A stretch of DNA of 64,000 bases, from assembly GCA_964016885.1 (NCBI GenBank), contig OZ024743.1, positions 146,878,001 to 146,942,000 of the forward strand. Reading direction: 5' to 3'. The position numbers and the translations under genes are program-made. Origin of the DNA: Eledone cirrhosa. Lineage: Eukaryota. Each line of letters starts with the position of its first letter. The stretch's first letter is position 1. Shown here one piece after another: positions 3,995-55,021 of this stretch. A model generated the notes under the pieces. That model made no database searches. It was not told the origin of the DNA and was given only the letters and a program-made list of their open reading frames with translations.

Positions 3995-4190
3995 TAGGAA
4001 AAGGTAAGACCCCGACGGCAGAGCTAAAGTCGTTTCGATGGCTATTTCTGTCCAGAAATAGCCGTCGAAACGGCTTGAGCTCTGCCGTCGGGGTCATACC
4101 TTTTCCTAGTACCCACTCTACTGCACTAAGTATTGAGTACTCTGCTGCGTTATGGTCCATCTGGTTCCTTACCACAATTCCTTCGTTATA
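3995..4190. repeat. Fold-back element (56-bp arms, 2-nt loop) with an ~80-bp tail, between (TA)n tracts
   Basis: 3995-4050 pairs with 4053-4108 with a few mismatches. Tail 4131-4190 resembles 2129-2190. Confidence 0.85.
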
Positions 4191-4634
4191 TATATATATA
4201 TATATATATATATATATATAATAAAATTAGAATTTAGCTTCAAACATAGCTGTATACAGATATGTATTTGAATTTCGTATTTCTAAAGAAATACGGTATG
4301 TTTATAAATAAACATTTAGAAAGCCATAGCTATGAATAATACACTGGGAGCTATTGCCACCAGGTGATGCCCAGCAGAAGCAAAAGGGACAATGGTCGAT
4401 GCATTTTAAAGTCAACTGGTTCTTATCAGGACGATCTCTACTGTTCTTGCAAATGCCGGACTTTGAAAACAGGTGAAACTATATAGTTTTTCGTCTCTGT
4501 AAATAAGGTGATTAATCTCATTTGCATATGAAGCTGTATAAGTTGGATCAACTTGGAATAGAATTAGAATTTAGCTTCGAATTTAGCTATGGCTTTCTAA
4601 ATGTTTAATGGAATCTACTATATTTTATTGTAAT

Positions 4635-5575
4635 TTAATAATAATAATAATGAAATTATTGTGTACTGTGCTCAGGTGCACTACAACTCATTAAAGGTGC
4701 ATGTATAGTACATAGAATAATGTACAAATGTCAGGAAGTGAACAGTGTATGAGTCACTAGCAAAATGGCCCGGCGTTGCTCGGGATTTGCTCTAGGGTTC
4801 TTATATATTTGATATATATTTATCCTTATCGAGCCTCATGAAATAAATACGTTTGTTTATATTTTGTTATTGTGTATGCAAAAATATCTGTGCACGAATA
4901 TATATATATATATATATATATACATTAAAATAACAGATAAAGTTTAAGCAAAGAATTGCTGCTTTCACCCTTAACGGGATCTTCTGAAACTAAAAAAATC
5001 GATCTGTGAATGCAGAAGTAAATATTTTGAAAAAAGTTACACACTATATATATATATATATATACATATACACACACACACTATACATACATATATACAC
5101 ACACACACACATATAGCGACGTCATAATGTCATAATGCAGACAGCCAGACATACAGACAGCTATTATAAGGGCGCAACGTTATATCTATGTATCTATCTA
5201 AAAAAAAAAAGACTAAGAATTATAGAGAGAGAACGCTAAGTCGCCTAATGTGGTGCCTAGGGCATTGACAATTTGAAATTTTTGCTCAAAACACTCACAG
5301 GACCATAAGTATTACATGTTTAAAGTTTGAAAACAATCGGTTGGGTGGTTCTCGAGTTTGAGGGAGTCAGACAGACAGACAAACATATATTCTCTGTTTT
5401 AGATATATAGATGATATATAGATGATGTGCATGTGTATGGAGGGGGCATATCAGCAAATTATATATTGGCAAATTTCCGGAAGAATGGAGGTTTTAAAGG
5501 ATGCAGTGTCTCGGCAGCTAACAACCGATGCAGGTAGTAGTTTGTTCCATGCTTCAGAAACTCTGAGCATGTTTA
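4635..5575 (-). mobile_element. CR1/L2-type LINE 3' end, split by a Helitron
   Basis: Minus strand near 5570-5450 reads LRVSEAWNKLLPASVVSCRDTASFKTSI, matching the RVxxxWNxLPxxVV...SFK motif. The 3' UTR continues at 4756-4650 into an (ATT)n tail. Confidence 0.6.
4757..5411 (-). mobile_element. Non-autonomous Helitron (~655 bp)
   Basis: Minus strand begins TC(TATATATCTAAAAC) and ends CCCGAGCAACGCCGGG (hairpin)-CCATTTTG-CTAG. It is inserted between A and T with no TSD. Confidence 0.8.
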
Positions 5576-5710
5576 TCTCCCAGAAATGCAGTGGAATAGC
5601 CACACTCTGTCACTCATTCACTCATTTTCTCTCTCTCTCCCTCTCTCTCTCTCTCTCTCTCTCTCTCTCTCTCTCTCTCTCTCTCTCTCTCTCTCTCTCT
5701 TTCTCTCTAT

Positions 5711-6065
5711 GGAGGCACATGGCTTAGTGGTTAGAGCATCAGCCCACACTGTAAAGTGGTCATGTAGGTGTCATGACAAAAATCACCCAACCTACACTGT
5801 AAAGTGATCGTGTAGGTGTCACAACAAAAAAACATCCAGCCAACACTGTAAAGTGATCGTATAGGTGTCATGACAAAAAGTACCCAGTACTCACAGTAAA
5901 TGAGGTTTGCATTAGTAAGGGCATCCAGCTGTAGAAACCAAACCAAAATCAGTTCTGTATGAGCAAGACAAGGCCACCTGGCTTGGCATTGCTCACAACA
6001 GGACAACTCATCTAACCCATGCTAGAGTGGAAAGATAGAGTTAAACGGTGATGATGATGATGATA
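5711..6065 (+). mobile_element. Chimeric tRNA-headed SINE with internal ~50-bp repeats and an RTE-type tail
   Basis: A-box-like TGGCTTAGTGGTTAGAGC, then three ACACTGTAAAGTG..TAGGTGTCA repeats, then GGGCATCCAGCTGTAGAAACC and GTTAAACGGTGATGATG shared with the RTE 3' UTRs. Confidence 0.6.
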
Positions 6066-53465: not shown

Positions 53466-54369
53466 ATATATATATATATATATATATATATATATATATT
53501 GATCTTTCCAATTGCTAATACTATCTACCGGTCGCAACTCCAGGTAGAGGGAGCAACGTGAATAAAGTGTATTGCTCAAGGACATAACGCATCGCCCGGT
53601 CAGGTTAATCGAACTCACAACCTCACGATTGCGAATCCGATTCTCTAACCACTCAGCCACACGCCTTCTCTTTCACACACACACACACATATATATATTT
53701 ATATACACATACATATTTCTTCGCTCGCCCTAATTCACCGTCGACAAATGCCTCGGACTTATATTCAGTAGCTGTTTTTGACTTCTCTCTCTCCTGGTTA
53801 CTTATATACATACATGTGCTTCTCGTGTTCCTCTCTCTTTCGGTATGTTCTCTGTGTCCCCCCCACCCCTACTGTTTGATTTTTTTCCTCTCTCCTTTCC
53901 CCCCAATAACTTCCCCAAGTTATTGACGCACTCGAGTTAGACATATTGTCTTTAATGCGTTGAAATGTCCGCGATCCAGCAGACAGCTGCAGAAGGGATT
54001 GACCACTGCTTGTGCTTTCATTTTATTTTTAAATACACTTTATCAAGTAACCACACAGCTCCCTGTTTCTCCCAAAATTTTATATATATATATATATATT
54101 TGTATATTCAGGTTTGAGGTTCACCCCTTTTGTTTGCCTATATCTGACCGGTAGTAGTTGTCTTTCTTCTTATAGCGGACATTAACCCTGGCTTCTCTTC
54201 TTCTTCCTTCCCCCTTCTTCTCTCTCCTTCCTTTCTTTCTTTCTTTTATCTTGTGGCATGAGATTGACGCTAACTTATGTTCCCATCCCTTTCTGTTTTC
54301 GTTTATCTGACCGGTAGTAGCACACTGTAAACTTTAGCCACGTCACTCGAGGGCGACCGGCTGAGGTTG

Positions 54370-54430
54370 AAGGAGCAGGATAGTGGTCCACCTCGGTTCC
54401 TCGATTTTCAGCCCCATGGATTTTATCTAT
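54370..54430 (+). mobile_element. Possible Tc1/mariner transposase scrap
   Basis: With frameshifts it reads W-P-P-R-F-L-D-F-Q-P-M-D-F, similar to WPPRSPDLxPxDF. Confidence 0.35.
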
Positions 54431-54632
54431 TACATTCACGTATTATATTTCGAATACCGGATGATATCACCGGATTCATACGGAACCCGGTCATTGAAAT
54501 GATCATAGTATAATAAACCTTTCAAGGATTTACACAAATCCAGCCTCCTGTCATTTCATTATAATTATTATATATTTGTATATATATATATATATATATA
54601 TATATATATATATATATATATATATATATATA

Positions 54633-55021
54633 TATAAACGTTAGAATATGTGTAATAAGGCCAAGACAATGCAGATATGGACATAGAAAAAAGAATGCAA
54701 TAGTGAGAGATATTGATGAGAATTCGTCTTTCACCTTGAATTTATTTAAATGTCCTTAATTTTCGAGATAATATCTCTTCTTCGGAGGGAAGTAAAAGTC
54801 TCAGACAGTCTGAGACTTTTACTTCCCTCCGAAGAAGAGATATTATCTCGAAAATTAAGGACATTTAAATAAATTCAAGGTGAAAGACGAATTCTCATCA
54901 ATATCTCTCACTATTGCATTCTTTTTTCTATGTCCATATCTGCATTGTCTTGGCCTTATTACACATATTCTAACGTTTATACCTCATTACACAATGCTTC
55001 AAGTGAACTATAACCTCCTCC
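54633..55021. repeat. 174-bp-arm palindrome with no mismatches seen (centre 54807) plus a 40-bp tail, between (TA)n tracts
   Basis: 54633-54806 is the reverse complement of 54808-54981. Each arm has a hammerhead-like CCT-CCGAAGA-a-GAGAT-att-ATCTC-GAAAATTA-AGG. Confidence 0.92.

What the first reader, a model, noticed from the sequence alone, without database searches (positions are those of the whole stretch)
3995..55021. Recurrent architecture of (TA)n - long hairpin - short tail - (TA)n across unrelated sequence families
Seen: fold-backs at 3995-4108, 24416-24531, 29535-29945, 41277-41556, 47541-49052, 49389-49729, 49746-50083 and 54633-54981. Nearly all abut (TA)n, and most have a one-sided tail of 40-130 bp. 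Most carry whole or half hammerhead motifs, and two are demonstrably ends of GIY-YIG Penelope elements. Inference: one mechanism, (TA)n-targeted Penelope-type retrotransposition with hairpin formation, is seeding the genome with about one palindrome per 8 kb here. These could yield long dsRNA hairpins (ADAR or siRNA substrates, notable if the host is a coleoid) or cruciforms.
Basis: partly seen in the sequence, partly recalled or inferred. Interest (0 to 1): 0.75.

Follow-up and report, generated by a model that had tools for sequence, protein, structure and literature searches.

The report
Penelope retrotransposon ends joined head-to-head
These DNA palindromes are real, back-to-back stubs of several families of Penelope-like jumping genes sitting in TA repeats, a known kind of insertion, and they likely form when both cut DNA strands start copying the element's RNA at two fixed sites and the copies, often running off its predicted capped start, are joined.

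Summary
All eight fold-backs exist; seven abut (TA)n and carry a one-sided tail. They are not unrelated: five map to Penelope-like element (PLE) frames in longer genomic copies (Hydra-type 3995, 41277, 49389; a DKG/CCHH family at 54633; Neptune-type 29535), 47541 holds GIY-YIG sequence itself, and two more share the Hydra tail motif. In 799 kb sampled elsewhere, 30 of 67 hairpins show TA-hairpin-tail-TA (null 0.6). Inverted copy, tail, hammerhead and TA bias are published PLE traits. Added here: tail length is fixed per family (40-138 nt) while apices vary; in 8 of 32 insertions the tailless arm is over 100 nt longer than the tailed arm, which fold-back cannot give; in the commonest family arms pile up at one base 31 nt behind a TATA-like box, preceded by a non-templated G (6 of 6 strict cases versus 3 of 25). 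Best reading: priming from both target strands at two RNA sites, often running off a capped 5' end. No RNA data; no A-to-G-edited copy among 589 arms. The scan reached this reading before on other DNA of this genome.

The parts
3997..4186 (+). H1: Hydra-type PLE stub. Hairpin 3997-4108, 78-nt tail to 4186; 3' half of a hammerhead (GAAA 4067-4070, predicted cut after 4089); apex at the family's predicted capped start
   Evidence: (EN with CxCx5C upstream in L129)
24416..24531 (+). H2: old stub of an abundant hammerhead family with the Hydra tail motif; hammerhead cores decayed; tail side occupied by a SINE-like repeat; apex within a few bases of the predicted start
29473..29945 (-). H3: Neptune-type PLE stub; about 58-nt tail 29473-29533; hammerhead 29682-29648 on the minus strand
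41277..41662 (+). H4: Hydra-type PLE stub; 98-nt tail; hammerhead 3' half only
   Evidence: 861-aa frame, DKT, CxCx5C
47129..47398 (+). Unlisted asymmetric unit related to H7: inverted tail with about 11 nt of arm, joined to a 173-nt tailless arm with a whole hammerhead (47302-47350), TA on both sides
47462..49060 (-). H5: Neptune-type head-to-head insertion; tail 47462-47540; the tailless arm is longer and alone carries GIY-YIG coding sequence (about 48235-48460); hammerhead-like motif near 48860-48895
49258..49729 (-). H6: young Hydra PLE stub; tail 49258-49388 (138 nt in most copies); hammerhead with long stem II in each arm
49746..50169 (+). H7: stub with 80-nt tail bearing the Hydra motif; hammerheads 49983-50032 (+) and 49846-49797 (-); arms joined at an 8-nt native inverted repeat; no PLE frame found upstream in 15 copies
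51618..53465 (-). 5'-truncated Neptune-type PLE copy (RT end, GIY-YIG, 3' repeat with hammerhead 51787-51753) ending at the tailless site next to (TA)n; longer relative of H3
54633..55021 (+). H8: stub of a very young PLE family (DKG, CCHH); 40-nt tail holding the ORF's first codons; hammerheads 54829-54857 (+) and 54785-54757 (-)
513..2103 (+).
60658..60927 (+). Single H7-type arm with hammerhead (60735-60783) and tail, followed by (TA)n, no inverted partner

Best explanation
The palindromes are head-to-head pairs of 5'-truncated ends of several Penelope-like retrotransposon families lying in (TA)n, and they likely arise when both strands of the cut target prime reverse transcription at two fixed sites of the element RNA and the two cDNA ends are then joined. 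Shown: the arms are PLE 3' ends; each family has two fixed outer ends (tail end and a second site 40-138 nt upstream); apices vary; either arm can be the longer. Inferred: the two fixed ends are the two RT start sites found in vitro for the anole PLE; the GIY-YIG nuclease nicks both strands of (TA)n; the two cDNAs anneal by short microhomology or are end-joined and copy each other. Inferred for the short, symmetric hairpins of the H1 and H2 families (and more weakly H8): the template is a capped RNA starting at the repeat's own promoter, both cDNAs run off its 5' end, and the cap leaves a non-templated G. Such stubs lose the upstream TATA-like box and point outwards, so they are predicted to give dsRNA only when read through by host transcription.
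For: PLE frames upstream of longer copies: H8 (15 of 30 loci; 905-aa frame between direct repeats in L176), H6 and H1, H4, H3 (6 of 30). (TA)5+ follows 145 of 165 best-matching copies; 94 of 165 have an inverted arm within 1.5 kb and 73 of 94 end at the family's modal base. Among 77 untargeted H1 arms, 39 end at the tail end and 35 at the second site; single arms ending at the second site exist (L070, L071, L298, L304, window 51618). Of 32 distinct two-armed H8 insertions, 8 have the tailless arm over 100 nt longer, 11 the tailed arm longer, 13 are symmetric within 10 nt, 10 of these at 185-204 nt. Arms of one insertion share subfamily alleles in 332 of 380 cells against 252 expected. 54 of 77 untargeted H1 arms and 20 of 31 H2 arms start in a 16- and 11-nt window; TATA-like boxes lie 29-31 nt upstream in 4 long H2-family and 8 of 9 long H1 arms; G precedes the modal H1 start in 11 of 12 unambiguous arms vs 3 of 36 other starts, 6 of 6 vs 3 of 25 under a stricter filter (p=1e-4), and 3 of 4 in H2. 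Raw reads of two other samples pile up at the same H1 base and show both TA junctions. PMC11167929: two adjacent RT start sites bound the tail, both strands are cut and extended.
Against: No RNA data, so start site, cap and strand are inferred. The G signal is strong in one subfamily only: 1 of 4 in the second H1 subfamily, 1 of 2 in H8; no start could be fixed for H3-H7. The H1 TATA-like word overlaps hammerhead stem II, so its conservation has a second explanation. Symmetric apices away from the hotspot (145, 174, 221 nt in H8; about 617 nt in L063) fit fold-back equally well. Allele sharing does not separate one RNA from one source locus or later gene conversion, and in long asymmetric insertions it is weak (minor allele in both arms 6, in one arm 5). 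Searches return only the best 40 candidates, which biases arm lengths. 43 of 67 sampled hairpins matched none of my reference families.
Confidence: 0.7

Rival explanations
1. Self-priming fold-back: one cDNA (or antisense template) folds on itself and copies back, as proposed for rotifer Penelope elements; it may make part of the symmetric hairpins.
For: 13 of 32 H8 insertions are symmetric within 10 nt; joins at native inverted repeats in window H7 and in L309 (hammerhead stem II); arms share alleles; proposed in PMC3846280 (passages).
Against: Cannot give a tailless arm holding sequence absent from the tailed arm (8 of 32 in H8; L043, L058, L185 in H6; window 47129 and 47541 units); does not explain single arms ending at the second site or a G on both arms (L141).
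Confidence: 0.17
2. Hammerhead self-cleavage sets the RNA 5' end, and hairpin apices mark the cut.
For: One low-depth contig joins two H8 arms exactly at the predicted cut (54756 to 54858, table 5c).
Against: None of 40 unambiguous H8 5' ends lies at the cut, 124 nt from the second site; H1 apices lie about 40 nt upstream of the predicted cut; cleavage was not needed in vitro (PMC11167929).
Confidence: 0.05
3. Palindromes formed after insertion, by repair of breaks at fragile (TA)n cruciforms, or are a MITE-like master palindrome that was amplified.
For: (TA)n is abundant (26 runs per 10 kb); H2 hits are all about 116-120 nt palindromes (query was the whole hairpin).
Against: Outer ends are fixed by family, not by locus; junction sequences differ from copy to copy; 100%-identical young copies already show the structure; arms continue into RT-EN frames.
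Confidence: 0.05
4. Assembly or library artefact (chimeric fold-back reads).
For: H6 and H8 arms are 99.7% identical; no record bridged the window's H8 apex.
Against: Arm identity spans 80-99.7%; fixed family tails; short-read contigs bridge H1-family apices and raw reads of other samples show strand-change joints there.
Confidence: 0.02

Closest known systems
EN+ Penelope-like element insertions (Craig et al. 2021, PMC8557442; passages, section 11 and a supplement search seen)
   Same: Inverted 5'-truncated copy at the 5' end, tail at one end, hammerhead in the pseudo-LTR, (TA)n bias; Hydra motifs in H6, H4, H1; the supplement lists Hydra-1_Obim and two Naiads from Octopus with (TA)n preference.
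   Different: Tails here reach 58-138 nt against the 30-40 bp described; most insertions are ORF-less stubs; the paper calls the origin of the inverted structures undefined.
PAc Poseidon element of Anolis (Frangieh et al. 2024, PMC11167929; parts 1-2 of 4 read)
   Same: Two adjacent RT start sites bounding the tail, both strands cut and extended, AT-rich target, ORF start inside the repeat (as in H8).
   Different: Does not address how inverted arms or their apices form; no promoter run-off reading in the parts read.
Adineta vaga Penelope elements (Arkhipova et al. 2013, PMC3846280; passages)
   Same: Head-to-head inverted pLTRs, optional 31-bp tail, palindromes at the junction, TATA and Inr-like words in the pLTR.
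   Different: Explained there by self-priming on an antisense template; few copies, target duplications visible.
Minimal hammerheads of PLEs (Cervera and de la Pena 2014, PMC4209133; passages)
   Same: Hammerhead pairs 100-700 bp apart on opposite strands; U3-A8 core variant as in long H1 copies.
   Different: H1 and H6 have stem II inserts of about 50-85 nt; in H1 the predicted RNA start falls inside stem II.
Non-LTR retrozymes (preprint 10.64898/2026.07.22.740005; abstract start and two passages)
   Same: H0 is a tandem non-coding hammerhead unit linked to PLEs.
   Different: H0 shows the inverted arm and fixed 77-78 nt tail; the word 'tail' does not occur in that preprint's main text.
L1 twin priming (recalled, no call)
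   Same: Both target strands prime cDNA and the ends join by microhomology.
   Different: In L1 the second primer lands far upstream and gives a non-overlapping inversion; here the second site is fixed and close, so the arms overlap as a palindrome.

Membership tests
EN+ PLE (canonical) | RT followed by C-terminal GIY-YIG nuclease in one frame | tested here: met
   H8 (L176), H6 (L183), H4 (L190) whole frames; H1, H3, H5 partial. Motifs read by pattern; Pfam gave no hit on the two short window fragments. No frame found for H2, H7.
EN+ PLE (canonical) | Direct pseudo-LTRs / partial tandems | tested here: met
   L176 has the H8 repeat at both ends; tandem copies 3,127 bp apart.
EN+ PLE (canonical) | Inverted 5'-truncated copy with a tail at one end | tested here: met
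   94 of 165 copies with an inverted arm, 73 of 94 at the modal end; tails 40-138 nt, longer than the 30-40 bp described.
EN+ PLE (canonical) | Hammerhead motif in the pseudo-LTR | tested here: met
   Descriptor hits in H3, H7, H8; three-way junction in long H1 copy; H2, H5, H6 by eye; H4 half only. Cleavage not tested.
EN+ PLE (canonical) | Target-site duplication | not testable with these tools
   Cannot be read inside (TA)n without empty alleles.
Hydra clade | RWK and DKT motifs | tested here: met
   H6: RWK in L042 (maps to the H6 reference), DKT in L183; H4: DKT, with ILWR for RWK. H1 RT not recovered.
Hydra clade | CxCx5C linker and no CCHH in the nuclease | tested here: met
   H6, H4, H1.
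Hydra clade | (TA)n insertion | tested here: met
   H6 23 of 30, H4 28 of 30, H1 29 of 30.
Hydra clade | Placement in the RT tree | not tested
   No tree built.
Neptune clade (H3, H5) | Cx2-5CxxC linker and CCHH nuclease | tested here: met
   Window frames at 48235 and 52268; Nematis not excluded, no tree.
Neptune/Nematis/Poseidon (H8) | Clade-specific linker | tested here: inconclusive
   DKG and CCHH present; linker matches neither CxCx5C nor Cx2-5CxxC.
Non-LTR retrozyme (H0) | Tandem non-coding units each with a type I hammerhead | tested here: met
   466-nt period, HH9 hits below gathering score, descriptor hit, longest frame 60 aa.
Non-LTR retrozyme (H0) | Circular RNA expression | not testable with these tools
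   No RNA run listed (which used H8 as query).
MITE / foldback DNA transposon | Uniform element with terminal inverted repeats at both ends | tested here: not met
   One-sided tails, variable apices, single arms, RT-EN frames.

The most novel reading that the evidence does not exclude
PLE inverted repeats are double strong-stop products: a PLE dimer primes both target strands at two fixed sites on one capped, sense RNA from the pseudo-LTR promoter, both cDNAs run off the cap and copy each other. This has seeded roughly 100,000 promoterless palindromes in this genome, also moves retrozymes, uses a shared ACTC...GAGT tail stem as the Hydra recognition signal, and would be the animal's main Alu-like source of read-through dsRNA.
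Probability: 0.5. Interest if true: 0.68.

Novelty: new member of a known kind. Interest (0 to 1): 0.44.

Why it matters
The architecture is known, but how PLEs build inverted repeats and tails is described as unresolved (PMC8557442). This genome holds thousands of very young copies, an uninterrupted 905-codon frame, and base-level footprints (two fixed ends, a modal start with extra G) that turn the question into specific tests and favour a sense, capped template over antisense self-priming. Extrapolated from 799 kb, about 250,000 fold-backs (about 110,000 with the full architecture) exist, a large potential pool of read-through dsRNA and of assembly difficulties.

Tried and rejected
Rfam on the window gave only sub-threshold miRNA look-alikes and HH9 hits in H0; on the long H1 copy and on 62200-62420 nothing useful. 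Pfam missed the two GIY-YIG fragments. ARAGORN found no tRNA. No RNA holder listed. A-to-G hyper-editing: 0 of 589 distinct arm matches in 1.85 Mb; the T-to-C hits were pyrimidine-tract artefacts of H6. Hammerhead cut as apex: not supported. The SINE-like family as a PLE passenger: 90 of 105 copies end at one site, few abut TA, 3 head-to-head pairs; not supported. A search with the H2 +1 query returned no candidate, so the H2 G count stays at 4 arms. Tail stem: the ACTC...GAGT motif is in 17 of 30 sampled tails vs 0.13 shuffled and pairs in 4 of 4 tails folded or nearly so except H6, but fold energies are mostly unremarkable; the L243 row of alignment A1 was the wrong side of the hairpin and was ignored. 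Dropped before counts: L076-L081 (repeats of H7 loci), duplicate H8 loci (L003, L299, L307/308, L313/314 and paired hits), and start sites whose preceding letters the other arm could explain (20 of 32 at the H1 modal base). Literature searches for a twin-priming or cap run-off model of PLEs and for cephalopod editing in PLE palindromes listed no such paper; the library lacks most subscription journals, and one search was seen as a listing only. Supplements of the 2026 preprint are closed and those of PMC11167929 were not read; they may bear on novelty.
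Full report
Observation. Self-comparison of the window finds all eight fold-backs at the stated coordinates, with arm identities from 80% to 99.7%. Reading them, seven abut a (TA)n run and reach another after a one-sided tail; 24416-24531 does not. The window lies in a 3.0-Gb animal assembly at G000:C4:146878001-146942000. To test chance I took 80 stretches of 10 kb at evenly spaced places. 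After masking simple repeats they hold 67 hairpins in 799,200 bases; 39 abut (TA)5+ (null 2.1, max 8 of 500) and 30 show TA-hairpin-tail-TA (null 0.58, max 4). Hammerhead enrichment is weaker: 18 vs 6.5 by a loose motif, 7 vs 2.9 by a strict descriptor. Density is one fold-back per 12 kb, one full unit per 27 kb.

What the arms are. I searched the genome with arm plus tail of six units (the best 40 of 15 to 4,265 candidates are scored, 30 loci kept, 15 for H7). 145 of 165 copies are followed by (TA)5+, 94 have an inverted arm within 1.5 kb, and 73 of these 94 end at one base per family, giving tails of 40 (H8), about 58 (H3), 78 (H1), 80 (H7), 98 (H4) and 138 nt (H6). Longer copies run into RT-GIY-YIG frames: H8 has a 905-codon frame between direct repeats with its first ATG in the tail; H6 and H4 have DKT and CxCx5C and lack CCHH, H6 also RWK, and H1 has the same nuclease type, the Hydra criteria of PMC8557442 section 11; H3 and H5 belong with a Cx4CxxC, CCHH nuclease seen at 52268 and inside H5's 'loop'. 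No frame was found for H2 or H7, but their tails share the ACTC...GAGT motif of H1, H4 and H6, present in 17 of 30 sampled tails against 0.13 in shuffles. So the families are diverged PLE ends, not unrelated repeats. 43 of the 67 sampled hairpins matched none of my references, so the PLE share of all hairpins is not settled.

Reality. Arm ages differ, junctions differ from copy to copy, short-read contigs bridge H1-family apices, and raw reads of two other samples show strand-change joints near 4050-4061, loose ends piling at 4050 (1,186 and 969 reads) and TA after both 4108 and 4183. The window's own H8 apex was not bridged by any record.

Mechanism, two ends. PMC11167929 (parts 1-2 read) shows in vitro that a PLE protein cuts and extends both strands of AT-rich DNA and starts at two adjacent RNA sites that bound the tail. 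Here 77 untargeted H1 arms end either at the tail end (39) or at the second site (35), and single arms ending at the second site occur. Mapping both arms on one natural full-length copy, 32 distinct H8 insertions split into 8 with the tailless arm over 100 nt longer (for example 2,911 against 253 nt), 11 with the tailed arm longer, and 13 symmetric within 10 nt. A copy folding back on itself cannot hold sequence that the first arm lacks, so two separately primed cDNAs are needed at least for the first group; window units 47129 and 47541 are of this kind. Arms share subfamily alleles in 332 of 380 cells against 252 expected (cells are not independent, and the signal is weak in long asymmetric insertions), which fits one RNA or one source locus.

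Mechanism, apex. Symmetric apices cluster: 10 of 13 at 185-204 nt in H8; 54 of 77 untargeted H1 arms at 53-68 nt; 20 of 31 H2 arms at 57-67 nt. Four diverged long H2-family arms keep a TATA box, 29-30 nt before an initiator-like A in three of them, and three keep a CCAAT word; 8 of 9 long H1 arms keep a TATA-like word 31 nt before the modal A (promoter consensus recalled). Exactly at that A, where the template has T, H1 arms are preceded by G in 11 of 12 unambiguous cases against 3 of 36 at other starts, 6 of 6 against 3 of 25 after a stricter filter; H2 shows 3 of 4. A non-templated G opposite the cap is known from L1 and processed pseudogenes (recalled). Against: 1 of 4 in a second H1 subfamily, 1 of 2 in H8, no clear start for H3-H7, and overlap of the H1 TATA-like word with hammerhead stem II. 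The hammerhead cut does not mark the H8 apices (0 of 40; one low-depth contig does).

dsRNA claim. No RNA holder was listed. A three-letter search found no A-to-G hyper-edited copy among 589 arm matches, in a set biased to best hits; an earlier scan note reports such copies, which I could not reproduce here. Stubs that begin at the start site lack the upstream box and face outwards, so hairpin RNA would need host read-through (inference).

Comparison and novelty. Inverted truncated copy, tail, hammerhead and (TA)n bias are all described (PMC8557442; PMC3846280; PMC2377424 passages; PMC4209133), and retrozymes are already tied to PLEs (preprint), as H0 shows here with 77-78 nt tails. Not found in my searches: long fixed tails, twin priming for PLEs, and cap run-off as the origin of symmetric apices. 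The scan's earlier notes on other DNA of this genome give the same PLE reading and the same capped-start reading (seen after my own tests); they are unchecked and not counted as support.

Verdict. Real, abundant, a known kind of insertion; the value lies in a testable account of how it is made. Interest 0.44.

Noticed in passing
window 1-2103 (continues upstream, L327, L328): Tandem 466-nt hammerhead unit, 99% identical family, inserted head-to-head in (TA)n with a fixed 77-78 nt tail like the PLE stubs.
   Followed up: yes
window 62227-62393, 32857-33907, 18237-18862: Very common SINE-like repeat (A/B-box-like head; a Meta-type core by recall) in tandem and inverted arrangements; the 62227 copy is a fold-back with a 39-nt one-sided extension, but the family shows one 3' end and no TA bias.
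   Followed up: partly
G000:C2:200827151-200837746 and C1:295431212-295440730 (L390-L393, L408-L411): H8 occurs as multi-copy tandems about 3,130 bp apart joined head-to-head; the family is extremely young (36 of 40 scored copies identical over 214 nt).
   Followed up: partly
window 47129-55150: At least six PLE insertions strung along shared TA runs, plus a likely further arm starting at 55047; insertions appear to pile into TA left by earlier ones.
   Followed up: partly
window 55456-60671 (+): L1/Tx1-like LINE with a zinc-knuckle ORF1 and an RT-bearing ORF2 broken by stops (Pfam RVT_1); an H7-type arm sits at its 3' end.
   Followed up: no
window 2795-3723, 20773-21493, 38433-40231: RTE-like LINE fragments, with a diverged inverted pair around 39380.
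   Followed up: no
window 40300-41150: Decayed Neptune-type GIY-YIG fragment joined to a LINE RT fragment, separated from H4 by TA and not part of it.
   Followed up: partly
window 11412-14031, 15918-16310, 61072-61596: Broken LINE (RVT_1), a Pif1 helicase fragment (PF21530) and a Tc1/mariner-like fragment (by eye; no Pfam hit).
   Followed up: no
window 23213-23534: 200-N gap flanked by an exact 61-bp direct duplication, likely an assembly join.
   Followed up: no
L010, L177: Inverted arms with internal deletions (120 nt and about 930 nt) while both ends stay in register, suggesting template jumps during second-arm synthesis.
   Followed up: no
window 2126-2184: Isolated piece of the H1-family tail between two TA runs.
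   Followed up: no
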